Below are positions 10,634-46,498 of a stretch of DNA of 64,000 bases, one piece after another. The stretch is from Dehalococcoidia bacterium. GTDB taxonomy: Bacteria > Chloroflexota > Dehalococcoidia > UBA6926. The notes under the pieces are model-generated. The model was not told the DNA's origin, did not search any database, and worked only from the letters and a program-made list of their open reading frames with translations. The position numbers and the translations under genes were made by a program. How positions within the stretch are numbered: position 1 is the first letter of the stretch; each line of letters starts with the position of its first letter. Location of the stretch: contig DAOUJJ010000013.1 of the NCBI GenBank assembly GCA_034422835.1, positions 12,618-76,617 of the forward strand. Direction: 5' to 3'.

Positions 10634-11119
10634 ATGGGAATGGTCGATAAGTCGACAAGGCCCTCCCGCAGGGCAACAAGGCTTGCGAAAGAGTCCGCCT
10701 TGAAACCCGCCGCCAACGGAATCGTCTACCTCTCCGGTGGCAACCCCCAGATCGCCAAGGGCGACGGCGACGGCCCTGTGCAGGCCTACATTGCCGCCAT
10801 GCCGGAGTGGAAGAGCGATGTTGGCCGACGCCTCGATGAACTCATCGTCCGTGCCGTGCCCAACGTTCGCAAGGCCGTCCGATGGAACTCCCCCTTCTAC
10901 GGCACGGAGGAGCACGGCTGGTTCGTCAGCTACCACGTCTTTGCCAAGTACATCAAGGTGACGTTCCTGAACGGCGTCTCGCTCGATCCCATGCCTCCCG
11001 CCGGCGGCAAGGACCCGGACGCCCGCTGGATTGACCTCTACGAAGGCGACTTTGACGAAGCTCAACTCACCGACTGGTTCCGCCAATCCGCCGCCCTCCC
11101 CGCCTGGAAAGGTTTTTAG
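10634..11119 (+). CDS. DUF1801 (YdhG-like) domain protein
   Basis: Sequence pattern typical of DUF1801. Stop abuts a repeat cluster. Confidence 0.5.
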   Translation: MGMVDKSTRPSRRATRLAKESALKPAANGIVYLSGGNPQIAKGDGDGPVQAYIAAMPEWKSDVGRRLDELIVRAVPNVRKAVRWNSPFYGTEEHGWFVSYHVFAKYIKVTFLNGVSLDPMPPAGGKDPDARWIDLYEGDFDEAQLTDWFRQSAALPAWKGF

Positions 11120-11120
11120 A

Positions 11121-11184
11121 CCGCTCATCCTGAGCCTGTCGAAAGGCCGCTCACCTGTCATTCCGGCGAAGGCCGGAATCCACC
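11121..11184. repeat. Palindromic repeat cluster (family 1 CTGAGCCTGTCGAAAGGC + family 2 GTCATTCCGGCGAAGGCCGGAATCC)
   Basis: Matches six other loci in the window. Hairpin-forming. Confidence 0.8.
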
Positions 11185-16315: not shown

Positions 16316-16330
16316 CGATTAGGCGCATTC

Positions 16331-16457
16331 GTCATTCTCGTGCTTGACACGGGAATCCAGAACACCCTCCCCCAATCTGCGAGTACGATAGGCGTCACAC
16401 GTTGGCGGGTCAAGGATGAGACACCCCCCATTCACCCTGAGCCTGTCGAAGGGCCCC
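16331..16457. repeat. Palindromic repeat cluster (family 3 GTCATTCTCGTGCTTGACACGGGAATCCAGAAC; family 1 TTCACCCTGAGCCTGTCGAAGGGCCCC)
   Basis: Lies between the CaiB fusion and vapB. Confidence 0.8.
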
Positions 16458-16825: not shown

Positions 16826-17208
16826 TCGTCGATTCATCTGCAGTCTGCGCCATCCTGCTGAGAGAGACTGATGGCCCCTATTTTGAAGAAGCGCTATTCC
16901 GTGTGGACGGTCTCCGTATGTCTGCGTTCAATGTTCTTGAATCCGCCATCGTGTTGGAAAGTCGGCTGGGCCCGGCAGGCGGCACAGAATTCGATGCATT
17001 CCTTCAGCGCGAATCCATCGAAATCGTCCCGGTGACGCCTGAACAGGTCACCGTTGCCCGCCGCGCTTGGCGAGAATTCGGCAAAGGCAACCACCCCGCC
17101 GCCCTCAACCTCGGCGACTGCCTCGCCTACGCCCTCTCCCAAATGACCCGCGAACCCCTCCTCTACAAAGGCGCAGACTTCGAGCAGACGGACGTACGCC
17201 CCGCCTAA
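16822..17208 (+). CDS. vapC: PIN-domain toxin VapC
   Basis: VIVDSSAV… with conserved acidic residues of the PIN fold. GTGA overlap with vapB. The track ORF 16690..17208 extends upstream only because no stop intervenes. Confidence 0.7.
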   Translation: MIVDSSAVCAILLRETDGPYFEEALFRVDGLRMSAFNVLESAIVLESRLGPAGGTEFDAFLQRESIEIVPVTPEQVTVARRAWREFGKGNHPAALNLGDCLAYALSQMTREPLLYKGADFEQTDVRPA

Positions 17209-17356
17209 CCGCTCACCCTGAGCTTGTCGAAGGGCTCCGCCCGTCATTCCCACGAAAGCGGGAATCCAGAACTCCCTTCCCCGGTGGGGGGGGAGAGTCA
17301 GGGTGAGGGGTAAGCGCCCCACCCATGTCATTCCGAGCGCAGCCGAGGAATCTAAA
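17209..17356. repeat. Palindromic repeat cluster (family 1, family 2 GTCATTCCCACGAAAGCGGGAATCCAGAAC, family 4 GTCATTCCGAGCGCAGCCGAGGAATCTAAA)
   Basis: Starts directly after the vapC stop. A GGGGGG…CCCC palindrome lies between the units. Confidence 0.8.
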
Positions 17357-17419
17357 TTGTCCACCAGCAAATCAACTGCAGGAGCGGCTCATTTGTAACT
17401 CCAATAATTCCAACGAGCT

Positions 17420-21249: not shown

Positions 21250-22358
21250 CAACTGATCAGACAACCTACTCCCGCCAACGCCAACTCCTTGCGGAGCTGT
21301 CCAACGCCTTCGGGCCGACGGGCTACGAGGCCCCCGTCCGCGCCATCATGCGCCGCGAACTTGAGCCATTGACCGACGCGCTCGAAACCGACGGCATCGG
21401 TTCCCTCATCGCGCGCATCGGTGACGAAGCCGATGATGTGCCGCGCGTCATGCTCGCCGCCCACATGGATGAAGTCGGCCTCATGGTGCGCCAGATCACT
21501 GCGGAGGGTTTCCTCACCATCCAGACCCTCGGCGGCTGGCTGGATCAGGCCTTAATAAACCAGCGGTGGGTCGTCATGACCCGCAACGGCCCCATCCCCG
21601 GCCTCACCGGCATCAAGACTCCCCATGTTATGCAGCCGGACGCCCGAAACCAGGTCTTCAAGAAAGAAAGCATATTCATTGACGTGGGCGCCAGGGACAA
21701 GGAGGACGCCGAGCAGCGTCTCGCCATCCGCCCCGGCGACCCCGTCGCGCCCGACAGCCGCTTCCAGGAGATGGCCGGCGGCGAGCTCTACATCGGCAAG
21801 GCGTGGGACGACAGGGCAGGGGTAGCCGGACTCATTGAGATTGCACGCGCCCTGCGTGAATCCACAGAGCCACTCCCCGCCACCGTCTACCTCGTCGCCA
21901 CCGTCCAGGAAGAAGTCGGCCTGCGCGGCGCGCACACAAGCAGCTTTCACGTCATGCCGGACATCGGCATCAACCTTGAATCCGGCGTCGCGGGCGACTA
22001 CCCCGGCATCACCAAAGACGAGGCACAGGAAGAACTTGGCAAAGGCCCGACGGTCTTCCTCCATGACAGCTCCATGATCCCCAACCTCCGTCTCCGCGAT
22101 TTCTTTGTCGATGCAGCCGCCGAACTCGAGATACCGCTGCAATTCAACGTCCTCAGTGGCTACGGACAGGACGGCGCGGAGATGCAGAAAGCCGGGTCCG
22201 GCGCCCCCTCCATCAACATCGCCGTCCCCACCCGATACCTTCACAGCCACAACAGCGTCATCCACCGCGACGATTTCTCCAACGCCGTCCGCCTGGTCAC
22301 AGAAGTCGTCCGCCGCCTCACCCCCGAAACCGTCTCAGCCCTAACCACCTTCGACTAG
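21246..22358 (+). CDS. M42 family metallo-aminopeptidase (FrvX/TET-like)
   Basis: AHMDEVG, KAWDDRAG and EEVGLRGA motifs. Confidence 0.8.
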   Translation: MTTDQTTYSRQRQLLAELSNAFGPTGYEAPVRAIMRRELEPLTDALETDGIGSLIARIGDEADDVPRVMLAAHMDEVGLMVRQITAEGFLTIQTLGGWLDQALINQRWVVMTRNGPIPGLTGIKTPHVMQPDARNQVFKKESIFIDVGARDKEDAEQRLAIRPGDPVAPDSRFQEMAGGELYIGKAWDDRAGVAGLIEIARALRESTEPLPATVYLVATVQEEVGLRGAHTSSFHVMPDIGINLESGVAGDYPGITKDEAQEELGKGPTVFLHDSSMIPNLRLRDFFVDAAAELEIPLQFNVLSGYGQDGAEMQKAGSGAPSINIAVPTRYLHSHNSVIHRDDFSNAVRLVTEVVRRLTPETVSALTTFD

Positions 22359-22366
22359 CCCCCCCC

Positions 22367-22514
22367 CGCTCACCCTGAGCCTGTCGAAGGGCACCCTCCG
22401 TCATTCCCGCCCCTCTCCCGTCATTCCCGCGCAGGCGGGAATCTGAATCGTATTGTGCAGCCCAACCCCGTAACGCCATTCCTGTCATTCTGAGCGCAGC
22501 CGAGGAATCTAAAG
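22367..22514. repeat. Palindromic repeat cluster (family 1, family 2 GTCATTCCCGCGCAGGCGGGAATC, family 4 GTCATTCTGAGCGCAGCCGAGGAATCTAAAG)
   Basis: Directly downstream of the M42 peptidase stop. Confidence 0.8.
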
Positions 22515-22656
22515 ACTCCGGTTCGCCAGGCAACTCTTGTTATTCGAGGGTTGCGCGTCCGCACGGACTCTCTACACTGGTGCCCATGAGAGCCTTGCCC
22601 AACCTCTTCGACGTGATGGCCATATACGCCCTGTATCAGGGCAGGTGACGGATACG

Positions 22657-26862: not shown

Positions 26863-28650
26863 GTGGACACCACAGACACCCCCAACACCGACGAGCCGCA
26901 GCGCCCCGTCACCCGGCGCGGCATCGCCCGCCCCCCTCGCACCCGACGCACAACGGCATCCGCTGCAACCGAAACCCCTCCTGAGGAAACTACTGCCGAG
27001 GAGGCCGTGGCCGACAACGGCGCAGCCCTCGTCGAAACCCCCACCGAAAACGGCGCATCCGCCCCCACTGAGGAATCCCCTTATTCCGGCGAAAGCCGGA
27101 ATCCATCGGGTACCCCCTCCATCACCGCCGGCCTACCACCCGCCACCAACACCACCACTGAAATCATCGATGACATCGAAGACGAAGCGCCGGTCGGCCC
27201 ACCCCGCCGCGCCCCTCGCCAACGCCCCGCCAACGGTGCAGGGCGGCAGCGGCGCGAACGCCCGGACCGCGGCGACCGCCCACAGCGCCCCCGCCCGCCC
27301 GCCAACGCTGCCGCTGACGGCGCCGATTCTGACTCCCAACCGCGTGAACCCCGCGTCGTTGATCTGCCGGAGCCCCTTCACCACGTCACCATCCCACAGC
27401 TTGAGGCCCTTGATCGTGACGAGGCCGCCCGCCTTGCGGAGTTCCTCAACATGCCCCCCGGCGCAGCCCTCCGCCGTGACGAGATGGTCCATCGCGCCAT
27501 CCAGCAGCTCGGTGAGCGCGGCGGCACAATCTCCGCCAGCGGCATCCTTGAGATCACCAACGACGGCTACGGTTTCATCCGCCACCGCACACTCCGCCAC
27601 AACATCAACGATGTGTACGTCGCCCAGTCGCAGATCCGCCGCTTCAGCCTCCGCACCGGCGATTGGGTCACCGGCCTCGTCCGCTCTCCCAAGAGCGGCG
27701 AGAAATACTACGGCCTCCTCCGCGTTGACACCGTCACCGGCCAGGAACCCGAGATCTCCCGCCGCCGCCCCGTCTTTGACCAGCTCACCGCCCTCTTCCC
27801 CGATCGACTCTACGATCTTGAGACGAATCAGAAGGCCGTCGCCGCCCGCCTCCTCAATCTCATCGCCCCCATCGGCTTTGGGCAGCGCGCGTTGATCGTC
27901 TCCCCCCCCAAGGCCGGCAAGACCATCCTCCTCCACCAGATCGCGGACGCCATCGCCTCCCAATACCCCTCAACACACATCATGGCCGCTCTCATCGGCG
28001 AGCGGCCCGAGGAGGTCACCGATTGGGAGCGCACCGTTAAAGGAGCGGAGGTCATGGCATCCACCTTTGACGAGCCCGTTGAAGAGCACACCCGCGTCGC
28101 GGAGCTCGTTCTCGCGCGCGCCAAGCGGCTCGTCGAGGCCGGGCAGGATGTCGTCATCCTTCTCGATTCCATCACCCGCCTCGCCCGCGCCTACAACATC
28201 GCCGCCCCATCCAGCGGACGCACCCTCTCCGGCGGCATGGACCCCGTCGCGCTGTATCCCCCCAAGCACTTCTTCGGCGCAGCCCGCAACACCGAGGAAT
28301 CCGGCACCCTCACCATCGTCGCCACTTGCCTGGTTGACACCGGATCGCGGCTTGATGATGTCATCTACGAAGAGTTCAAGGGCACCGGCAACATGGAAGT
28401 CCACCTGGACCGCAAACTCGCCGAGCGCCGCATCTACCCCGCCATAGACGTCCTCAAGTCCGGCACCCGCCGTGACGAGCGGCTCTACGACAACAAGACC
28501 TACCGCGGCATCGTCACGCTCAGGCGCATGATGGCCATGCTCTCCAACTCCAACCTGGACGCATCCGACGCCACAGAGCGCATCCTCGATCGCATCAGCA
28601 AAACCAAGACCAACGCCGAATTCATAGCCACCCTCTCCCGCGAAATCTAA
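26863..28650 (+). CDS. rho: Transcription termination factor Rho with ~200-aa Arg/Pro/Thr-rich N-terminal extension
   Basis: Rho RNA-binding and ATPase motifs (GYGFIR…, PPKAGKT…). GTG start 6 nt after RBS AAAGGAG. The track ORF 26173.. begins inside pyrG in another frame. Confidence 0.85.
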   Translation: MDTTDTPNTDEPQRPVTRRGIARPPRTRRTTASAATETPPEETTAEEAVADNGAALVETPTENGASAPTEESPYSGESRNPSGTPSITAGLPPATNTTTEIIDDIEDEAPVGPPRRAPRQRPANGAGRQRRERPDRGDRPQRPRPPANAAADGADSDSQPREPRVVDLPEPLHHVTIPQLEALDRDEAARLAEFLNMPPGAALRRDEMVHRAIQQLGERGGTISASGILEITNDGYGFIRHRTLRHNINDVYVAQSQIRRFSLRTGDWVTGLVRSPKSGEKYYGLLRVDTVTGQEPEISRRRPVFDQLTALFPDRLYDLETNQKAVAARLLNLIAPIGFGQRALIVSPPKAGKTILLHQIADAIASQYPSTHIMAALIGERPEEVTDWERTVKGAEVMASTFDEPVEEHTRVAELVLARAKRLVEAGQDVVILLDSITRLARAYNIAAPSSGRTLSGGMDPVALYPPKHFFGAARNTEESGTLTIVATCLVDTGSRLDDVIYEEFKGTGNMEVHLDRKLAERRIYPAIDVLKSGTRRDERLYDNKTYRGIVTLRRMMAMLSNSNLDASDATERILDRISKTKTNAEFIATLSREI

Positions 28651-29629: not shown

Positions 29630-30000
29630 CACGGTCAGTGACTACGCCTAGATGCAGGCGTGGGGCTTTCCGCGTATTGCATGCACACTCGCGGCAAGCC
29701 CCGCTGTAACAAAGCGCAGTCGGGATAAAGCGAGCGGATAACGGAGAGCGCGCGGCTCTCCACAGTTATGGAGACCAACCGGACAAGCAAGCGCGGGAAA
29801 GTCAGCACACCCTGCCGATCCAACAACCCTCACTCCGGCAGGCGCCCCTGACTCCCACACACGGGGAGGAGCAGATGCACTCACAAGAACCCTGGCAGTC
29901 GCGAAGCCCCACGGGCAGCGTGAATAAATCTTTGATTTCATCTACACTTGGAAAGACGGGACGCAAAGGTCCACATCACAGTTACGGAAGGGGGCTTCCT

Positions 30001-33000
30001 GTGAAGCGCAAAGCACTAGTTATCCTGACGGTCGCGATCCTCGCGTTCGCCATGATCCCGGCCCTCGGGGCGGGCGCGGCGGTTGGCACGGTCAAGATCG
30101 TTACCCCGGATCAGCTGGCCAACCCCACGGGGAAGACCGGCTCGGCCTTTGAAAAGCTCAATGCCGCGGACTACGTCTCCGACAAGACCGGTATGGAGAC
30201 TAGCTTAGAGGATGCCGGTGGCACCCTTTACGCCGTTATCGATGATAATGACGGCGTTTCCAACGCTTTGACTGACTACTACGCCTACTTCACCGATGCA
30301 AGGCCAGGCACCGCAGATGGTGGTGGTAACGCCTACAACATTGATCCGGGCACGACAACGCCATCCACCACGAACGGCATAGTCGCTGATTGGGTTACAG
30401 ATACTGTTGACCCTGTTGCCATGGGGGATCTTGTTGCCCGTACGGACGATACGGCCACCACTGACGTCAATGAGTCTGACGGCGCCGATGACCTCGAGAT
30501 TGGCGATAGGAACCGGAATGGTGAGATCGACTCTGGCGACCTTCTGATTGAGATTGGGTACTTCGTGCCGCCTGTCGTAGACGATCCGGATACTACGGAT
30601 AATGAGCAAGAGGACCTGCAGTTCGAAGCCGTGCGAACCGTGAATGTCGGAAACGCGTTCCAGGATGCCAGCAGAAACGGCAAGGAAGCCTTCCTTAACT
30701 TGAACACGATTCCCGCTTTCCCTGCGGCACGTGACGCTGCAGATCAGTTGGACACCACTGAGGTTGGTGCCTTGCGCATCAGGTTCGCATCTGCGGGTGT
30801 TAACGAACTCAAGTATGGCGATGATGCGGCTGTGGAACTTCGAGGCAAGAGCCGGGTGCAAGTCCGGAGTTCGTCCGGCGATCCGATTCGGATCACCGTG
30901 AGAGAGAAGAATCTTGTCGAACTCGCCAAGCAGAAAGCCGGGGTTAATCACGCAGCGCTGACTGCGACGGACACTGACGGAAACTCCACGACCGACTCAC
31001 GTGATTCCGGCGTTTTCGTCGGCATGTTTGGCGTGATTCGCAATGACTTCAAGGAAGCGATTGCAACGTGGACGCCGACTCCCACAGACTCTGCGCAGTC
31101 CGAGGAAATAACTGTGATTGCCGCAGGCGGTACACCTGCCGCCGACGAAGTTCTGCCAGTCGAAGCGGAGACTGATTCTGCAAGCGATAATTTCGAGTTG
31201 GCGATGACGGAGATCACGCTTCCGGGCGTCAACAAGGATAACGTTCTCAAGGCTAATACCACAGAAACGCGTAACGACGATGTTACCGTAACGATCAAGG
31301 ATCCAGAGCGTAATGATACGCCCGATGCTGCTGCCGACCCGCCTGTGGTTGATAAGGCAGACGCTGACGTTGATGATGAGATAAGAGTCACTGCTGTAAC
31401 TGTTGGAGATCCAGATCCGCAAACAGGTGCGGTGGTCATCACAGTGGCCACGAAGCATGGAGCCGACGCTACTACAGCCACCGATGGTGACACTCTAGAA
31501 GATGACATATTCGTCCTTACCTACACGACCACTGATCTCAATAACAACATCAACGACCTGATTGCAGCCGTTGCCGCGACAGACAAGGACGCAGATCGGG
31601 ATGAGGCGTTCTACGATTTCTGCCAGGGCACAACCGAAGGCAAGGAGTGCGCCGAGAGGGACAAGTTGGAGGCGGCCCTGAAGGCTCATGTTACAAATCT
31701 GGGCCTTTCATCTGCGACCGATCTTACGGGTGATGATGCCAGCGCGCTGGTGAACTCGCTCGTCGGCGCGGAGCACGGCGATACCCTCACCGTGAGCTAC
31801 GCAGATGCCGACCCCAGCAGCACGCGCACAGATACTGCTGAGGTGGACCTGAACGCCCCGACGATCGGCTCGCTTGATCCTGCAAACAACTCCTACGTCG
31901 ATAACGATGACTTCTCGGTGTTCTTCAGCGTGACGGATCCGGATTCGGGCATCCCGGAGGACGCCCATGATGCGACTGAACAGACCATCAGAGCCGGCAT
32001 GGCTTACGTTGAAGAGGTAGTCACGTTTGGCGAAGGCGACGCTGATCCTGTTTCCAACTTGGCAAACGGTGACGAAGCGGTTCTCGATGTGGATGACACC
32101 ATCCAGGATGGCGAGCGCTACGATCTTGAGATTGACGTGACGCAAGCCGCGGAAGCCGCCGAAGGTGATGAGGATACCGACGCGAAGACGGTGACGGTCC
32201 GGGTCAAGATTACGGCTTATGACCTTGCCCGAAACTTCGTCACAAAGACGTACGAGTTCGTGATCGATAACATTGATCCCGTCCTTGAGGACGCCATCAC
32301 CGGATGGGGCATCTCAAGCAGCGCGACAGCACTGCGCGCCAACGGCGATGAGGGCGCATACGTCTTGGTGGAACAGCAGAGGGACAGAATTGTTCTCGTG
32401 TTCGATGACGCAATCCAGGGCGATGCCCTGCTGGAACAGAACATCCAGGTGTCCGGCACCAGCGTCTCAAGCATCGAGTGGCTCGATAACACCGGCAGCA
32501 ACGTCATCAGCGTCGGCGATGCAGACATGTCAGAGACTGCCGGTGACCTTGACTTCAATGCCAAGACTCGGACAAGTGCCGATGCCCCTGATGTTGTCAG
32601 GGAGTTGGGCCTCCGGACAGAAACCAATGGTCAGGATGCGCGGCACCTCCTGTTCCTGACGCTTGAGGCTGATCTCGCTACGGATGCCCGCCCAACCATC
32701 GAGATTGATGGCGGCGACCTGACCGACCTCGCAGGAAACCTGAATAAGAGCGACCACGAGAGGCGCCCGGATGACCGCCTTGCGCCGATCTTCAAGATCA
32801 GTGTTGAGGAAGCCTTGAGCAACGACACCTTCAACGTGACGGTGGAAACCTCTGAGGACTTGAAGCGCAGGCCTACCGCGTCCATCTCCAATGGCAGAAT
32901 TCTTCGCCCCATCACCCTGAAGGCAGGCACCGGAAACACGTGGGCGCTCTCCACTGACCGGAAGGGACTTAACCTCGTTGCCCGTGAGGGCAGGCAGGAC

Positions 33001-34122
33001 GGTGTCTACGAGGTCACGGTTGAGGGCAGTGACGAAATTGGCAATGAGGCAATGGCCACAAGCGGCAAGTGGGAGTTTGACACCCAAGCCAACAACGGCG
33101 TCCTGCCCAACCGTGGTGGCGTGGCCGCTGATGACGGCACCAAGGCAAAGGCTGATCTCGCCCAGAAGATCGAGAGGAACGAAGTCGTCTTCCTGAACCT
33201 GCTCTTCACCGCTGAGACCGGTGAGTACACCGGCGACACCAAGAAGAAGGTCAACATCAGCAGCCTGAGCCTTGATACCCTGGCGGATGATGCGATTGAT
33301 TCCAAGAACAAGCTCGTAGCCAGTCCCACGGTCGAGAGCACCTTGGACGTGGATGCCGGTTCGGCGCAGAGCTCGGACGGCATCAAGCACGTCATCGCCC
33401 TCGCGGACCTCGCGATTGGCAGCTACCGCCTGAACGTGGACTACGCTGACGAGGCGGGCAACACGGGCAAGTTCGGCTACGTGTTCAAGATCACCGCCCC
33501 GGCCCCCGTAGAGATCGCCGTGGTACCGGGCTGGTCCTTGGTGTCCATCCCTGGCACCCCGGTTGACTCGAGCGTCGCTGGTGTCTTCGAAGGCTCGTCG
33601 GTGACGGATGTGTGGAGCCTGGATAACGAGACCAAGCGCTGGCAGTACGCTGGCAAGGATGCGAACGGCGAATGGGTGGAAGGCACCCTGCCGCAGATCG
33701 TGGCCGGCCGCGCGTACTTCGTCCGCAGCACCACCTTCGACCCGATCAAGGTCCTGACCGAGCGGTTCAGCCCGGAGACCACGCCGTCGCAGTACGTCGT
33801 GACCAGCGGCTGGAACGGCATCGGCTACACCCCCGCGGGCAGCGAGACGGCGATCAGCGTCGACGGCTACCTGAGTTCGCTCGGGGCCAGCGGATGGGGC
33901 ATGATCCGGATGTGGAACGCGGACGCGACCCCGCCGCAGTACGAGACCTACTTCGCCAGCGGCGCGATGACCGACGGCTTCCCGGACGGTGACGGCAACG
34001 CTGCCTGCGCAACGCCAACGTCCGATTGCGACGCTGACAACATTGCTGCTGGTGTAGCGAAGGTTGAGAAGGGCAAGGGCTACCTGCTCTTCGCGACCCG
34101 CAACGGAGTCATCGGCGGCTAA
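30001..34122 (+). CDS. Giant secreted acidic cell-surface protein with dockerin/EF-hand-like Ca-binding loops (S-layer/adhesin-like)
   Basis: GTG start after SD GGAAGGGGG. Signal peptide VKRKALVILTVAILAFAMIPALGAGAA. D/T/E-rich throughout, DRNRNGEIDSGDL-type loops; 1373 aa. Confidence 0.6.
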   Translation: MKRKALVILTVAILAFAMIPALGAGAAVGTVKIVTPDQLANPTGKTGSAFEKLNAADYVSDKTGMETSLEDAGGTLYAVIDDNDGVSNALTDYYAYFTDARPGTADGGGNAYNIDPGTTTPSTTNGIVADWVTDTVDPVAMGDLVARTDDTATTDVNESDGADDLEIGDRNRNGEIDSGDLLIEIGYFVPPVVDDPDTTDNEQEDLQFEAVRTVNVGNAFQDASRNGKEAFLNLNTIPAFPAARDAADQLDTTEVGALRIRFASAGVNELKYGDDAAVELRGKSRVQVRSSSGDPIRITVREKNLVELAKQKAGVNHAALTATDTDGNSTTDSRDSGVFVGMFGVIRNDFKEAIATWTPTPTDSAQSEEITVIAAGGTPAADEVLPVEAETDSASDNFELAMTEITLPGVNKDNVLKANTTETRNDDVTVTIKDPERNDTPDAAADPPVVDKADADVDDEIRVTAVTVGDPDPQTGAVVITVATKHGADATTATDGDTLEDDIFVLTYTTTDLNNNINDLIAAVAATDKDADRDEAFYDFCQGTTEGKECAERDKLEAALKAHVTNLGLSSATDLTGDDASALVNSLVGAEHGDTLTVSYADADPSSTRTDTAEVDLNAPTIGSLDPANNSYVDNDDFSVFFSVTDPDSGIPEDAHDATEQTIRAGMAYVEEVVTFGEGDADPVSNLANGDEAVLDVDDTIQDGERYDLEIDVTQAAEAAEGDEDTDAKTVTVRVKITAYDLARNFVTKTYEFVIDNIDPVLEDAITGWGISSSATALRANGDEGAYVLVEQQRDRIVLVFDDAIQGDALLEQNIQVSGTSVSSIEWLDNTGSNVISVGDADMSETAGDLDFNAKTRTSADAPDVVRELGLRTETNGQDARHLLFLTLEADLATDARPTIEIDGGDLTDLAGNLNKSDHERRPDDRLAPIFKISVEEALSNDTFNVTVETSEDLKRRPTASISNGRILRPITLKAGTGNTWALSTDRKGLNLVAREGRQDGVYEVTVEGSDEIGNEAMATSGKWEFDTQANNGVLPNRGGVAADDGTKAKADLAQKIERNEVVFLNLLFTAETGEYTGDTKKKVNISSLSLDTLADDAIDSKNKLVASPTVESTLDVDAGSAQSSDGIKHVIALADLAIGSYRLNVDYADEAGNTGKFGYVFKITAPAPVEIAVVPGWSLVSIPGTPVDSSVAGVFEGSSVTDVWSLDNETKRWQYAGKDANGEWVEGTLPQIVAGRAYFVRSTTFDPIKVLTERFSPETTPSQYVVTSGWNGIGYTPAGSETAISVDGYLSSLGASGWGMIRMWNADATPPQYETYFASGAMTDGFPDGDGNAACATPTSDCDADNIAAGVAKVEKGKGYLLFATRNGVIGG

Positions 34123-34190
34123 CCCAAACAGAAACCGGACAGCAACCCGCAAGGCAAGCTACAGAGCAAACTGAACGGATAGCTGAAAAA

Positions 34191-34227
34191 GAGAGGGGCG
34201 GCGCACCAGCGCCGCCCCTCTCCCTTT
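34191..34227 (+). terminator. Rho-independent terminator after the giant gene
   Basis: GAGAGGGGCGGCGC-acca-GCGCCGCCCCTCTC followed by CCTTT. Confidence 0.55.
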
Positions 34228-34250
34228 AACCCATCTGCTACACTGTCCCC

Positions 34251-34483: not shown

Positions 34484-35431
34484 TTGGAAGACCTCGTCAC
34501 CCGCCTCCTTGAAGGCAACCTCAACGCCGCCCCACGCATCCTCACCCTCCTCGAAAAGGGCGACCCCCAGGCCGATGCCATCATGCAGCGCATCGCCACC
34601 CACCGCGGGGGCACCCACATCATCGGCATCACCGGCCCCCCCGGCGCGGGCAAGAGCACCCTCGTTGAGGCCATGACCGCAGAACTCCGCAAACGACAAC
34701 AGACCGTCGGCGTCCTCGTCGTCGATCCCTCAAGCCCCTTCACCGGCGGCGCAATCCTGGGAGACCGCGTCCGCATGAGAGACCACTTCCTGGATCCCGG
34801 CGTGTTCATCCGCAGCATGGCCACGCGCGGGGCGTCCGGCGGCCTCTCCGCCATCGCCCCCTCCGCCATGCGCGTGCTGGACGCGGCGGGCATGGACGTG
34901 ATCATCGTGGAGACGGCGGGCGTGGGGCAGACGGAGCTGGACATCATGCACACCGTCGATAGCGTGGTGGTGGTGGTGGTGCCGGAGGCGGGCGACGCGA
35001 TCCAGACCATGAAGGCCGGGCTGCTGGAGATCGCCGACGTGTTCGTGGTCAACAAGTCCGACCGCCCCGGCGCGAAACGCATGGCCGCCGACCTGGAGAC
35101 GACCGTGCACCTGGGCAGCCGCGACATGGACTGGTGGACGATTCCCGTGCTGCAGACCGAGGGGATCCGCAACAAGGGCATCACGGAACTGGTGGACGCG
35201 GTGGGGCGGCACCACGAGACGCTGCGCGAGACGGGACGGCTGGAAGCCCGCCGCGCCGAGCAGAGACGCTCAGAGTTTCACGCGGCGTTGAGGGAGCGGC
35301 TGCTGGAGCGGCTGACGCGGGCGGAGCACTCGGAGGCGTTGGCGGACATCCTGCGGAAAGTGGAAACCGGAGAACTGCCCCCCATCACCGCCGCCACCCA
35401 CGTGCTTGAGAACCCGGATTTGCTGGCCTAA
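34484..35431 (+). CDS. meaB: MeaB/ArgK-like G3E-family GTPase (methylmalonyl-CoA mutase accessory)
   Basis: GITGPPGAGKST, VETAGVGQ, NKSD motifs. TTG start inferred. The track ORF starts at 34415. Confidence 0.7.
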   Translation: MEDLVTRLLEGNLNAAPRILTLLEKGDPQADAIMQRIATHRGGTHIIGITGPPGAGKSTLVEAMTAELRKRQQTVGVLVVDPSSPFTGGAILGDRVRMRDHFLDPGVFIRSMATRGASGGLSAIAPSAMRVLDAAGMDVIIVETAGVGQTELDIMHTVDSVVVVVVPEAGDAIQTMKAGLLEIADVFVVNKSDRPGAKRMAADLETTVHLGSRDMDWWTIPVLQTEGIRNKGITELVDAVGRHHETLRETGRLEARRAEQRRSEFHAALRERLLERLTRAEHSEALADILRKVETGELPPITAATHVLENPDLLA

Positions 35432-36582
35432 CTCCCCAGAGCGGCCTCCACCCCCAAGAACCGCCCAATATCCTCCACTTCCTCCCGCACCGCATCCCAA
35501 ACGCCGCCCGTCCGGTCACCTTGAGCCTGTCGAAGGGCCTCAAACCCATCAACCACTATCTCAAGCCCCCGTCCACCCCGCACCCACCGCCACGACCACG
35601 TCGCCACCGCAAACCCATCGATAGCCAGCACGGGCCGGATCATCCCCCCGCCCGCATTCACTCGAGACAGATGCTCCGGCGCAACCGCCAGCCCCCGCCC
35701 CCGATACCCAAGCAAATACGTATCAAAAAACCCCAACAGCCGCACCAGTCCGTCATTCCCGTGCTTGACACGGGAATCCAGAGCATCCCCCGCCACCCAC
35801 ATCCCCTCCCCCTCAACATCAACCTCCACCAACTCGCCCTCAATCGACTCCCATCCCGCCCGGGTGTCCCGCAGCGGCAGCCCCGACCACACGGCGAAGT
35901 CGCGCGGCGTCGAGGGCCCGAACGCCCTGATATACCGGCCCGCCAGCCGCGCGAGCGCCTCCTCCCGCGAGAGTTCCGGCCGCTCGATGCCCGCCAGCCA
36001 CGAGTCCGTTGCCGCGAACGTCTCCGTCTTGCCGTCCAACAGCGGCCCGTGCGTGGTGATGCCCAAAAACCCCCCGGACCGCACGATGTGGTGCAGCGCC
36101 TGGTTCTCAACGGGGATGTCGTGGGCAGCCAGCCGCTTCCCCAACTGCTGCCGTGTCAGCGGCCCCTCGGCGGTCAGGATGTCGACGGCGTGCCCGTGCG
36201 CCCTGTCCAGTGTCTTTTCATCGAGGCCGAGTTCACGGCGGCGGCCGCGCCCGGCGGAAAACGACGATGGCCCCAGCAGCGCCGTCATCCACCGATGATC
36301 TTCCGAAGGGATGAGGTGCAGCGTGCCGCGCATGGCCCACGTGCGGACGATGGAACGATCATGTGACAGCGCCTGTATAACGTCAGCGGATGTCAGCCCG
36401 GAGCTTCGCACGCGGACCTGGAGGGGCGCAGCGTTCATGTCCTGCGCCTGGATGCCGCCCGTGCGCCGCACGATGTCGAGCACGGGCTCCGCGCTGTTTT
36501 GTGAGCTTACCGCCCCATCCAACCCCTGCGAGACGGTACGAAACCGCCGCGCCTCATCAACGGAAAGCGTAACGGCGGGCAT
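35428..36582 (-). CDS. AlkZ/YcaQ-family winged-helix DNA glycosylase (DUF1006) carrying two in-frame palindromic-repeat insertions near the 3' end
   Basis: N-terminal MPAVTLSVDEARRFR…LSHDRSIVRTWAMRGTLHL and LLGFFDTYLLGYRGR motifs typical of YcaQ/AlkZ. Repeat family 3 (35751-35781) encodes …DSRVKHGNDG… and repeat family 1 (35513-35542) encodes …ALRQAQGDR… in the gene frame. Confidence 0.6.
   Translation of the reverse strand: MPAVTLSVDEARRFRTVSQGLDGAVSSQNSAEPVLDIVRRTGGIQAQDMNAAPLQVRVRSSGLTSADVIQALSHDRSIVRTWAMRGTLHLIPSEDHRWMTALLGPSSFSAGRGRRRELGLDEKTLDRAHGHAVDILTAEGPLTRQQLGKRLAAHDIPVENQALHHIVRSGGFLGITTHGPLLDGKTETFAATDSWLAGIERPELSREEALARLAGRYIRAFGPSTPRDFAVWSGLPLRDTRAGWESIEGELVEVDVEGEGMWVAGDALDSRVKHGNDGLVRLLGFFDTYLLGYRGRGLAVAPEHLSRVNAGGGMIRPVLAIDGFAVATWSWRWVRGGRGLEIVVDGFEALRQAQGDRTGGVWDAVREEVEDIGRFLGVEAALGS
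35513..35781. repeat. Two palindromic repeat units (family 1 at 35513-35542; family 3 at 35751-35781) inside the alkZ-like ORF
   Basis: TCACCTTGAGCCTGTCGAAGGGCCTC and GTCATTCCCGTGCTTGACACGGGAATCCAGAG. Confidence 0.8.
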
Positions 36583-46248: not shown

Positions 46249-46263
46249 CGAGGACGGCCCGCT

Positions 46264-46498
46264 GTCATTCTGAGCGGAGCGCAGCGGAGTCGAAGAATCT
46301 AAAGCCTCAAATGCGCCGCCAAACCCCCTCCCCACCGTGAGGGAGGGCAAGGTGGGGGGCACATCCGCTCATCCTGAGCCTGTCGAATGACGTGAGCCCA
46401 TCCGTCATTCCCGCGAAAGCGGGAATCCAGAGCCGTCGATAGGGCGGACTCCTCATTAATTCCGAGTGAAGCGCAACAGGATTGAGGAATCTAAGCAC
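46264..46498. repeat. Largest palindromic repeat cluster (family 4 variant, CCCCTCCCCACCGTGAGGGAGGG palindrome, family 1, family 2 GTCATTCCCGCGAAAGCGGGAATCCAGAG, family 4/5 TTCCGAGTGAAGCGCAACAGGATTGAGGAATCTAAG)
   Basis: Five hairpin units within 235 bp, immediately after the CaiB stop. Confidence 0.8.

What the first reader, a model, noticed from the sequence alone, without database searches (positions are those of the whole stretch)
35428..36582. Palindromic repeat units inserted in-frame inside an AlkZ/YcaQ-like DNA glycosylase gene
Repeat F3 (35751-35781) sits inside the coding region just upstream of the conserved LLGFFDTYLLGYRGR motif and is translated in frame as …ALDSRVKHGNDGL… Repeat F1 (35513-35542) is translated as …FEALRQAQGDRTGG… near the C-terminus. 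The ORF stays open through both. Intact protein length (~384 aa) matches family expectations only if the repeat-encoded segments are retained. This resembles Rickettsia palindromic elements, which insert in-frame into protein-coding genes.
Basis: partly seen in the sequence, partly recalled or inferred. Interest (0 to 1): 0.6.

Follow-up and report, generated by a model that had tools for sequence, protein, structure and literature searches.

The report
Hairpin repeats translated inside a repair gene
Two short genome-wide repeat units really do sit in frame inside a working DNA-repair (AlkZ-type glycosylase) gene of an uncultured Chloroflexota bacterium; one belongs to the known hairpin-repeat class that includes the small Rickettsia palindromic elements and Neisseria dRS3/NTS, so this is a new example of a known phenomenon.

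Summary
Confirmed. ORF 35428-36582 (-) is a full-length AlkZ-like glycosylase: Pfam covers 329/329 profile positions, the QAQ catalytic motif is present, the predicted fold matches AlkZ, and dN/dS is 0.15-0.3.

F3 (35751-35781) is a 31-nt hairpin. It matches the published Ssn-related motif (SRM; the NTS/dRS3 class) and the definition of "CGTC-tagged REPs". That superfamily includes Rickettsia RPE-4 and RPE-6 and was already reported in frame inside genes. F1 (35509-35542) is a genuine repeat (7 copies, 0 expected) but not a palindrome. Elsewhere, units of its class form inverted ends around small GIY-YIG nuclease genes.

Neither unit adds much length. F3 replaces a native helix-turn with no net length change against AlkZ itself.

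In syntenic orthologues the same codon positions hold different repeat families. 25 of the 35 closest homologues carry repeat peptides; 0 of 85 distant ones do. Two co-occurring genomes, 95-100% identical around the site, differ by a clean swap of native sequence for a repeat. Rho (in the window) and MeaB (in a sister genome) show the same behaviour.

Verdict: a real feature and a new member of a known kind. The cassette-like turnover and the link to GIY-YIG nucleases are the interesting extras. How the units spread is inferred, not shown.

The parts
35428..36582 (-). AlkZ-like (HTH_42, AZL-type) DNA glycosylase gene, 384 aa. It converges on the MeaB gene and overlaps it by 4 nt.
   Evidence: ORF. 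Pfam PF06224 E 6e-60, 329/329 profile positions. PDB 5UUJ AlkZ E 1e-26. AlphaFold model pLDDT 92.7, Foldseek TM 0.79-0.81 to 5UUJ. dN/dS 0.15-0.3. Syntenic orthologues.
35751..35781 (+). F3: a hairpin repeat of the SRM / CGTC-tagged REP class (9-bp stem, CTTGA loop, CCAG tail). It is antisense to the gene and translated as LDSRVKHGNDG (aa 268-278), taking the place of the native helix-turn before VRLLGFFD.
   Evidence: Exact match to the published SRM search motif. 30/31 twin at 16330-16360. Folding z -2.8/-3.5. The orthologous site is occupied by other units or by native sequence.
35509..35542 (+). F1: an 'A-type' repeat unit (core CTTGAGCCTGTCGAAGGGC, 35520-35538), not palindromic, translated as FEALRQAQGDRT (aa 347-358).
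   Evidence: nhmmer E 3.6e-10. 7 copies against 0.00 expected. No significant fold. The same unit is present in L002 and absent from L001, L004 and L005. The class flanks small GIY-YIG genes elsewhere.
36442..36450 (-). Codons for the catalytic Q45-A46-Q47 motif (Q-aliphatic-Q, AZL type), intact.
   Evidence: Q45 and Q47 are invariant in 85 homologues. They align to QAQ of AlkZ 5UUJ. Motif definition from PMC9040887.
16330..16360 (+). Intergenic twin of F3 (CGTCATTCTCGTGCTTGACACGGGAATCCAG). Its flanks are unrelated, which sets the unit boundaries at 31 nt.
46262..46495 (+). Intergenic mosaic array (D, C, A, B, D units) starting just after a stop codon. 46403-46430 is an exact match to the Neisseria NTS definition.
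17206..17362 (+). Intergenic mosaic array (A, B, C, D units) abutting the stop codon at 17206.
22365..22519 (+). Intergenic mosaic array (A, partial B, B, D units) after the stop codon at 22357.
11119..11184 (+). Intergenic A + B (TGTC-tagged SRM) pair after the stop codon at 11118.
27077..27107 (+). A second intragenic case in the window: a CCTT-tagged B unit translated in frame (ESPYSGESRNPSG) in the N-terminal disordered extension of Rho (gene 26863..28650 +).

Best explanation
What it is. The AlkZ-like gene is functional. Short, genome-wide repeat units have colonised its C-terminal third and are translated as part of the protein.

F3 is a 31-nt single-strand-DNA hairpin of the CGTC-tagged REP class, also called the Ssn-related motif (SRM) class. 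Members of this class are Neisseria dRS3/NTS and Rickettsia RPE-4/-6. F1 belongs to a second, non-palindromic class. Elsewhere, units of that class form the inverted ends of small, IS-like GIY-YIG nuclease genes.

In this Chloroflexota lineage four unit families normally pile up in mosaic arrays immediately after stop codons: A (the F1 class), B (the F3/SRM class), C and D.

How it most likely works. Units occasionally land in, or are copied into, coding DNA. Because a unit is 28-31 nt long, only events whose junctions restore the frame survive. They must also introduce no stop codon and hit a tolerant helix-turn, loop or disordered segment.

Once a position carries a unit, its content turns over quickly. 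This happens either by non-allelic copying or gene conversion from the many other genomic copies, or by contraction of multi-unit arrays. As a result, close relatives carry different units at the same codon.

What is shown: the identity of the units, their in-frame translation, their replacement of native sequence, the turnover between orthologues, purifying selection on the gene, and conservation of the hairpin.

What is inferred: that small GIY-YIG single-strand nucleases (Ssn-like) acting on single-stranded DNA drive the spread, and that the encoded peptides are passengers rather than functional additions.
For: Identity of F3. It matches the SRM motif HGTCWYN(0-2)YYVSBRHN(0-5)WNVSBRGN(0-2)RNCYNB (motif from PMC11893778). 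Window 46403-46430 is an exact NTS. The CGTC tag, stem, loop and CCA tail fit PMC3733652.

Hairpin selection. 20 of 36 variant stems are fully compensated.

The gene is functional. See (dN/dS 0.15-0.3).

Foreign origin and turnover at site 1:
- Window: B.
- L001: a different B subtype.
- L002: D.
- L004: D plus a partial B.
- L005: C.
- L007: B plus A.
- L006: native ARARLEQIYGDTAP.
- 25 of the 35 closest homologues carry repeat peptides, against 0 of 85 distant ones.

Recent independent acquisition. Genomes L248 and L249 come from the same sample and are 95-100% identical on both sides of the site. They differ only by native helix sequence against a B unit plus extension. The same ~40-nt module sits at site 2 in L007.

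Generality:
- MeaB of L001 has a clean +13 aa unit.
- The Rho N-terminal region carries A, B or C units at one spot in different orthologues.
- In-frame SRMs occur in an IleRS-like gene of a Rickettsia endosymbiont and in a class II aaRS gene.

Tolerance. In P0015 the repeat arrays are low-confidence excursions (pLDDT 42-71) from an intact fold.

GIY-YIG link:
- Small GIY-YIG genes lie within ~120 nt of B units in 6 of 120 loci.
- GIY-YIG genes are flanked by inverted A units in L190 (ends 49/50 identical), L204 and L210, and by A units in L005 right next to AlkZ.
- The literature shows that Ssn cleaves ssDNA next to its hairpin (PMC11893778).

A DNA-level rather than RNA-level process. All 18 units in the window are on the + strand, whatever the strand of the host gene.
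Against: - No GIY-YIG or other candidate mobilising gene lies in the 64-kb window.
- No conserved neighbouring gene other than occasional GIY-YIG genes was found around 120 B loci or 120 A loci.
- No target-site duplications or precise empty sites with simple insertion were seen; every case is a replacement. The insertion mechanism therefore remains unknown.
- Ssn has been shown to modulate transformation, not to mobilise repeats (PMC11893778).
- Turnover could be differential shrinkage of an ancestral array rather than new insertion.
- A functional role of the encoded peptides or of the mRNA hairpin (-18.5 kcal/mol) is not excluded.
- Site 1 lies only ~10 residues before the region likely to correspond to the essential DNA-binding loop (PMC13303869).
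Confidence: 0.8

Rival explanations
1. Differential decay of an old array. An ancestor of the clade acquired one long multi-unit in-frame array at each site. Present genes show different leftovers after unit-by-unit deletion, helped by the shared GTCATTC...GAATC termini. No new insertions have happened since.
For: Multi-unit arrays are tolerated (P0015/L007, P0012, P0014). B and D units share their termini. Partial units and stumps exist, such as the L005 MeaB 12-nt stump and the GGGCGGAATGAC repeats in L007.
Against: L248 and L249 are near-identical genomes, yet one retains the native helix sequence. An ancestral array cannot explain that. The F3 subtype has a 30/31 intergenic twin in the same genome, although dS between sister genes is about 0.3. 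The same ~40-nt module occupies site 1 in L248 and site 2 in L007.
Confidence: 0.25
2. Adaptive element. The intragenic units are kept because they do something. They might mark the gene for Ssn-controlled recombination or transformation as in Neisseria, pause translation through the mRNA hairpin, or tune the DNA-binding subdomain of the glycosylase.
For: Hairpins inside genes are still perfect in 4 of 5 intragenic B units read from the sequences. The AlkZ 3' third is mosaic and much more diverged than its flanks (71-85% against 93-100% nt). This parallels the lower identity of dRS3-adjacent genes in Neisseria (PMC1797815). Di Nocera et al. noted an excess of REP-decorated DNA repair genes. 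Site 1 directly precedes the FFDTYLLGYRGR region.
Against: Unit family, number and encoded peptide differ freely between close orthologues. Repeat-free orthologues are equally conserved. The same units sit in unrelated proteins: MeaB, Rho and aaRS. Intact hairpins are also what recent insertion would leave.
Confidence: 0.15
3. Artefact or mis-annotation. The repeats would be 3'-UTR or intergenic elements read through by chance, a misassembly, or a pseudogene.
For: Most units of these families are intergenic and abut stop codons. The window comes from a short-read metagenome scaffold.
Against: Conserved family motifs and the Pfam profile continue to aa 375, beyond both units. The identical protein is on record from two sources. 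Circular long-read genomes show the same architecture. dN/dS is well below 1.
Confidence: 0.02

Closest known systems
CGTC-tagged REPs (Di Nocera, De Gregorio & Rocco 2013, PMC3733652), including Rickettsia conorii RPE-4/RPE-6
   Same: F3 has the CGTC tag, a stem starting with A-T pairs, a 9-bp stem with a 5-nt loop, and a CCA tail. Other copies in the window have the 8-bp stem and GAAA loop of CGTC-1, or the TGTC tag variant; CCTC-tagged copies occur in the sister loci. That paper already reports such repeats entirely inside ORFs, encoding extra residues, often in DNA synthesis and repair genes. It also reports repeats supplying stop codons.
   Different: The paper lists CGTC repeats in five phyla, not Chloroflexi. 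Its units are mostly head-to-head dimers, whereas here they are single and all in one orientation. It does not describe several unrelated repeat families alternating at one codon position, or replacement of native sequence.
NTS/SRM hairpins and the Ssn family of GIY-YIG ssDNA nucleases (Chenal et al. 2025, PMC11893778); Neisseria dRS3/NIME arrays (PMC1797815)
   Same: F3 matches the SRM motif and window 46403-46430 matches the NTS definition exactly. Units cluster in mosaic arrays next to genes. Small GIY-YIG genes are flanked by the units in an IS-like arrangement. Neighbouring coding sequence is unusually diverged.
   Different: [quoted passage not shown] No ssn gene lies in the window. The F1 class does not match the SRM motif. 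It pairs with a GIY-YIG subfamily only 30% identical to the B-associated one.
Rickettsia palindromic elements of the RPE-1 type (Ogata et al. 2000/2002; reviewed in PMC10969869)
   Same: Repeats are inserted in frame in unrelated housekeeping genes, in positions compatible with the fold, and the proteins remain functional.
   Different: RPE-1 elements are ~100-150 bp and encode 30-50 aa. F3 and F1 are ~31-34 nt and encode ~11-12 aa. RPEs are described as additions, whereas here native residues are replaced.
REPIN/RAYT systems and E. coli BIMEs (PMC3116915, PMC2817692)
   Same: Short hairpin repeats, organised in mosaics after genes, thought to be moved by a single-strand-DNA enzyme.
   Different: The GTAG tag is absent. 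No RAYT gene was found near the units. REPIN families are typically lineage-specific, whereas the B 24-mer is identical in at least 15 phyla.

Membership tests
SRM / NTS (Ssn-related motif) | Matches the published degenerate motif HGTCWYN(0-2)YYVSBRHN(0-5)WNVSBRGN(0-2)RNCYNB | tested here: met
   F3 35751-35781 matches. There are 4 matches in the window against 0.82 expected in shuffles. F1 does not match.
SRM / NTS (Ssn-related motif) | Forms a hairpin as a single strand, with an oriented non-palindromic 5' flank (CGTC) and a C after the palindrome | tested here: met
   9-bp stem, z -2.8/-3.5. CGTC lies 5' and CCAG 3'. Compensatory stem variants occur across copies.
SRM / NTS (Ssn-related motif) | A cognate ssn (single-domain GIY-YIG, cd10448) gene in the same genome, often flanked by the motif | tested here: inconclusive
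   None in the 64-kb window. GIY-YIG genes lie next to B units in 6/120 loci from other organisms. A GIY-YIG gene of another subtype lies beside AlkZ in sister genome L005. The rest of the source genome is not available.
SRM / NTS (Ssn-related motif) | Strand-specific cleavage of ssDNA next to the hairpin by Ssn | not testable with these tools
   Requires biochemistry.
CGTC-tagged REP (families CGTC-1 to -4) | Terminal CGTC (or TGTC/CCTC), an 8-9 bp stem beginning with A-T pairs, a 4-5 nt loop, and a short CCA-like tail | tested here: met
   F3 reads CGTC | ATTCCCGTG | CTTGA | CACGGGAAT | CCAG. Definition from PMC3733652.
Rickettsia palindromic elements (RPE) | Palindromic repeat inserted in frame in functional protein genes | tested here: met
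   A Rickettsia endosymbiont locus, L081, shows an SRM dimer in frame in an IleRS-like gene.
Rickettsia palindromic elements (RPE) | Element of ~100-150 bp encoding a conserved 30-50 aa peptide (RPE-1 type) | tested here: not met
   F3 is 31 nt (11 aa) and F1 is ~34 nt (12 aa). Only the short RPE-4/-6 types are equated with CGTC REPs in PMC3733652.
REPIN / RAYT | GTAG-tagged REPs in inverted doublets, with a RAYT (IS200/IS605-like) gene flanked by them | tested here: not met
   No GTAG tag. Window units are single and all on the + strand. No recurrent transposase-like ORF near 240 loci.
MITE | Terminal inverted repeats plus a target-site duplication, 70-300 bp | tested here: not met
   31-nt unit. 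No duplication at any junction compared.
AlkZ/YcaQ (HTH_42) DNA glycosylases, AZL subgroup | Full-length PF06224 domain and the 3x winged-helix / beta-barrel fold | tested here: met
   Pfam 329/329. Foldseek to 5UUJ E 1e-21, TM 0.79-0.81.
AlkZ/YcaQ (HTH_42) DNA glycosylases, AZL subgroup | Catalytic (Q/H)-aliphatic-Q motif (as opposed to Q-aliphatic-D in YQL) | tested here: met
   Q45-A46-Q47 is invariant. Definition in PMC9040887.
AlkZ/YcaQ (HTH_42) DNA glycosylases, AZL subgroup | Glycosylase activity on alkyl or crosslink lesions | not testable with these tools
   Requires an enzyme assay.

The most novel reading that the evidence does not exclude
In this Chloroflexota lineage, short repeats associated with GIY-YIG nucleases behave as exchangeable coding cassettes. 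These are the SRM hairpins, the undescribed 'A-type' unit that forms the ends of a second GIY-YIG gene subfamily, and two further families. Nuclease cuts at a resident unit on single-stranded DNA would be repaired from any other genomic unit. The same codon position of AlkZ, Rho or MeaB would then be rewritten in frame again and again, acting as a natural engine that diversifies loops and disordered regions. The uniform strand orientation of the units would reflect avoidance of self-cleavage on the lagging-strand template.
Probability: 0.25. Interest if true: 0.7.

Novelty: new member of a known kind. Interest (0 to 1): 0.42.

Why it matters
It extends in-frame 'protein-coding palindromes' from Rickettsia and Proteobacteria to Chloroflexota. 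It also ties them to the recently discovered Ssn / GIY-YIG hairpin system.

The orthologue series gives an unusually clear natural experiment. The same three or four positions of a structurally known enzyme are occupied by native sequence or by one to five units of four repeat families. This bears on how proteins tolerate and acquire new segments. It also identifies closed sister genomes in which the still-unknown mechanism of repeat spread could be worked out.

In practice, such units inflate and fragment gene calls and produce families of spurious 'hypothetical proteins'.

Tried and rejected
- **Rfam.** The scan found nothing at gathering threshold in the whole window. At E<=1 it found nothing around the gene, and only a weak FtrB hit (E 0.19) in the 46.3-kb array. 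A known RNA family is rejected.
- **Literature searches.** Searches for the repeat-encoded peptides and repeat strings found only one incidental Neisseria sequence.
- **Guilt by association.** Clustering ORFs around 120 B loci and 120 A loci found no recurrent transposase or RAYT. Only housekeeping families and small GIY-YIG genes recurred.
- **NCBIfam.** It gave no useful name for the GIY-YIG proteins.
- **Intragenic candidates in other phyla.** Several B units lying in long open frames turned out to have no Pfam support, or to lie upstream of the real start (L025, L030, L106, L107, L083, L022). They were not counted.
- **Target-site duplications.** None were found at filled versus empty sites.
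- **Covariation statistics.** A formal test on the B alignment was dropped because the loci had been selected for an exact 24-mer. A simple count of compensated variant stems was used instead.
- **3-D placement.** Only position along the sequence relative to the DNA-binding loop is given.
- **The F(A/P)GME motif.** The idea that this clade-wide motif at site 3 is an old decayed B unit (FAGMT frame) was considered. It was left as speculation.
Full report

The window is part of a metagenome scaffold (ENA ERZ23495130, NGUY21-1_SAMN17524321 scaffold_222, 192.8 kb). It comes from a Chloroflexota, probably Dehalococcoidia, organism, judging by the names attached to homologues.

ORF 35428..36582 on the minus strand encodes 384 aa. 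It matches Pfam AlkZ-like over the complete profile (E 6e-60, positions 1-329 of 329, aa 38-375). It aligns to Streptomyces AlkZ (PDB 5UUJ, E 1e-26). An AlphaFold model built on 85 homologues has pLDDT 92.7 and superposes on 5UUJ with TM 0.79-0.81.

The catalytic Q-A-Q motif (Q45, Q47) is invariant. This is the Q-aliphatic-Q signature of the AlkZ-like subgroup (PMC9040887).

**The two repeats**

F3 is at exactly the stated coordinates. 35751-35781 reads CGTCATTCCCGTGCTTGACACGGGAATCCAG on the plus strand and is translated on the minus strand as LDSRVKHGNDG (aa 268-278). An intergenic twin identical at 30 of 31 positions lies at 16330-16360, with unrelated flanks. Two matches were found against 0.00 expected. 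F3 folds into a 9-bp stem with a 5-nt loop (z -2.8 and -3.5).

F1 has its HMM match at 35509-35542 and its core at 35520-35538. It is translated as FEALRQAQGDRT (aa 347-358). It belongs to a family with 7 copies in the window against 0.00 expected. F1 does not fold better than shuffled sequence, so only F3 is a palindrome.

**The units are internal, foreign and translated**

Thirty-four homologues were aligned. The motifs FFDTYLLGYRGR, GGGMIRP and DIGRFLGV follow the repeats in all of them.

Six orthologous loci were fetched. All are syntenic, with the order CoA-ligase | AlkZ | MeaB.

At "site 1", between W262 and VRLLGFFD, the DNA holds different content in each genome:
- The window has F3.
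- L001 has a different hairpin subtype (ATTCCGGC stem).
- L002 has an unrelated D unit (GTCATTCTGAGCG...GAATC).
- L004 has a D unit plus a partial hairpin.
- L005 has a G/C-rich C unit (PSPTRGEG).
- L007 has a hairpin, two partial units and an F1-type unit.
- L006, all more distant homologues and AlkZ itself have a native helix-turn (ARARLEQIYGDTAP and similar).

The other positions behave the same way:
- "Site 2", a beta-hairpin tip after ATWSW, carries units in L004 and L007 but none in the window.
- "Site 3" carries the F1 unit in the window and in L002, and native EGALxPSW elsewhere.
- At the C-terminus, a D unit in L001 supplies the last codons and the stop codon. A C unit does the same in L007.

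25 of the 35 closest homologues carry at least one repeat-type peptide. None of the 85 more distant ones do.

The units replace sequence rather than add to it. Between W262 and VRLLG the window protein has 17 residues. AlkZ has 17 in an ungapped alignment, and L006 has 19.

Pairwise dN/dS over ungapped codons is 0.15-0.3. It rises to 0.37-0.64 for the window's C-terminal part but stays below 1. The gene is therefore maintained by selection.

**A recent, independent acquisition**

P0018 and P0019 come from two circular genomes in one sample (ERZ25074053). They are 89% identical as proteins and 95-100% identical in DNA on either side of site 1.

P0019 keeps the native LREDTPRLEDVY segment. P0018 has HKDGMDSGFHRNEGSSTGG instead, encoded by a hairpin unit plus a short extension.

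The same ~40-nt module (ATGGATTCCGGCTTTCGCCGGAATGAGGGGAGTAGT, one base different in L248) sits at site 2 in L007. This points to non-allelic copying with replacement of resident sequence. It argues against pure differential decay of a single ancestral array, although array contraction probably also occurs.

**The behaviour is not confined to this gene**

- In L001 the neighbouring MeaB gene carries a clean 13-aa in-frame unit (LSSPHSGESRNPSGSP) just before the P-loop. Orthologues 95-97% identical lack it. L005 keeps a 12-nt stump.
- In the window, the Rho gene (26863..28650, 595 aa) has a unit at 27077-27107, translated as ESPYSGESRNPSG inside its N-terminal extension. The conserved N-terminus MDTTDTPNT... 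lies upstream, so the unit is within the coding region.
- Rho orthologues 85-93% identical carry C, A or B units at the same spot.
- In other phyla, an SRM dimer lies in frame within the anticodon-binding domain of an IleRS-like gene of a Rickettsia endosymbiont. A single unit lies within the catalytic domain of a class II aminoacyl-tRNA synthetase.
- A model of the array-rich orthologue P0015 (454 aa) keeps the AlkZ core at high confidence. The repeat-encoded stretches score pLDDT 42-71.

**What the units are**

The canonical window hairpin (46403-46430, CGTCATTCCCGCGAAAGCGGGAATCCAG) matches exactly the 28-nt Neisseria Transformation Sequence, CGTCATTCCCGCGMAVGCGGGAATCYRG. F3 matches the degenerate Ssn-related motif (SRM) of Chenal et al. 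2025 (PMC11893778).

That paper shows that small single-domain GIY-YIG proteins (Ssn) bind these hairpins on single-stranded DNA and cut beside them. [quoted passage not shown]

Di Nocera et al. 2013 (PMC3733652) had earlier defined the same sequences as CGTC-tagged REPs. Their criteria are a CGTC, TGTC or CCTC tag, an 8-9 bp stem starting with A-T pairs, a 4-5 nt loop and a CCA tail. They equated CGTC-1 with Neisseria dRS3 and R. conorii RPE-6, and CGTC-4 with RPE-4. They reported such repeats wholly inside ORFs, often in DNA-repair genes. They also noted different REPs at about the same site of recB in two Xanthomonas species.

I found the exact 24-mer GTCATTCCCGCGAAAGCGGGAATC in at least 120 species representatives. 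They span Proteobacteria, Bacteroidota, CPR groups, Chloroflexota, Planctomycetota, Acidobacteriota, Nitrospirota, Verrucomicrobiota and others. Elsewhere the units usually occur as head-to-head pairs 40-100 nt apart.

20 of 36 variant stems are fully compensated. This shows selection for the hairpin.

**The GIY-YIG link**

Small GIY-YIG genes lie within about 120 nt of the hairpins in 6 of the 120 loci.

The F1 class is also widespread, with at least 120 metagenome contigs carrying the exact 22-mer. In three of those contigs a ~100-aa GIY-YIG gene is bracketed by inverted F1-type units; the L190 ends are 49/50 identical. In L005 such a gene, with five or six F1-type units around it, sits directly between AlkZ and MeaB.

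These GIY-YIG proteins are 46% identical to each other. They are only 30% identical to the hairpin-associated ones. I did not find this pairing described in the papers read; it rests on four loci.

**How it probably works**

The following points are shown:
- The units are copies of dispersed repeats.
- They are translated.
- They replace native segments at a few tolerant positions.
- Their content differs between close relatives.
- The host gene is under purifying selection.
- All 18 A, B and D units of the window lie on the plus strand whatever the strand of the host gene. GC skew is negative throughout. This favours a DNA-level, possibly replication-linked process over an RNA-level function.

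The following points are inferred. Spread and exchange may be driven by Ssn-like nucleases acting on single-stranded DNA. Survival of intragenic copies may be a selection filter: units are 28-31 nt, so only junctions that restore the frame persist. Resident units may act as landing pads for further exchange.

No target-site duplication or mobilising gene was found in the window. The insertion chemistry is unknown.

**Rival explanations**

- Differential decay of an ancestral array is partly plausible. L248/L249 contradict it as the sole explanation.
- An adaptive role for the units is possible. The AlkZ 3' third is mosaic and far more diverged than its flanks, and site 1 directly precedes the region likely to correspond to the essential DNA-binding loop. 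However, unit type varies freely between orthologues.
- Artefact or read-through is rejected.

**Verdict**

The finding is real and correctly interpreted in outline. It is a new member of a known kind: in-frame CGTC-REP / SRM repeats in a new phylum and a new host gene. The added observations deserve follow-up. They are multi-family cassette turnover at fixed codon positions, replacement of native structure, and a second pairing of a repeat class with a GIY-YIG subfamily.

Noticed in passing
window 27077-27107 (Rho gene 26863..28650 +): A hairpin unit is translated in frame (ESPYSGESRNPSG) in the N-terminal disordered extension of Rho. Orthologues 85-93% identical carry C, A or B units at the same spot, and some carry further units at a second spot.
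   Followed up: yes
L001 5991-6021 (MeaB gene); L005 MeaB: MeaB of a sister genome has a clean 13-aa in-frame unit just before the P-loop. Another sister genome keeps a 12-nt stump (CCGTCATTCCCCC).
   Followed up: yes
L005 5240-5860: A 98-aa GIY-YIG nuclease gene surrounded by five or six F1-type units lies between AlkZ and MeaB. In the window these two genes overlap by 4 nt.
   Followed up: partly
window, all repeat copies (11119-46495): All 18 A, B and D units are on the + strand regardless of host-gene strand. GC skew is negative along the whole window, and a rough gene count gives 25 genes on - against 17 on +. This may be an orientation bias linked to replication.
   Followed up: partly
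window 35440-35890 compared with L001/L002: The 3' third of AlkZ is 71-85% identical in DNA between sister genomes, while the flanking CoA-ligase and MeaB genes are 93-100% identical. L001 and L002 are 95% identical where the window is 75% identical to both. The pattern is mosaic and suggests recombination.
   Followed up: partly
window 11118, 17206, 22357, 46248; L001 5129-5154; L007 3' end of AlkZ: Intergenic arrays begin directly at stop codons. In two orthologues a repeat unit supplies the last codons and the stop codon of AlkZ (…SLRSE*, …ISPPP*).
   Followed up: partly
Genome-contig loci L008-L127: The exact 24-mer GTCATTCCCGCGAAAGCGGGAATC occurs in at least 120 species representatives from at least 15 phyla, mostly as head-to-head pairs with unrelated spacers. 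Tandem arrays also occur (L123, L099).
   Followed up: partly
window 34178-34235: A strong inverted repeat (27-nt arms, 81% complementary, 4-nt loop) follows the long + strand gene 29710-34119. It looks like a terminator.
   Followed up: no
window 49178/50114, 53364/54231, 60990/63056: Three pairs of tandem paralogous genes, 73-79% identical over at least 300 nt.
   Followed up: no
L004 2727-3953; L007 3372-3932; L248/L249 398-1495: The interval between the CoA-ligase gene and AlkZ takes up different extra genes in different sister genomes: PDDEXK_4, DUF1697, DUF433 plus PIN. This marks a variable spot.
   Followed up: no
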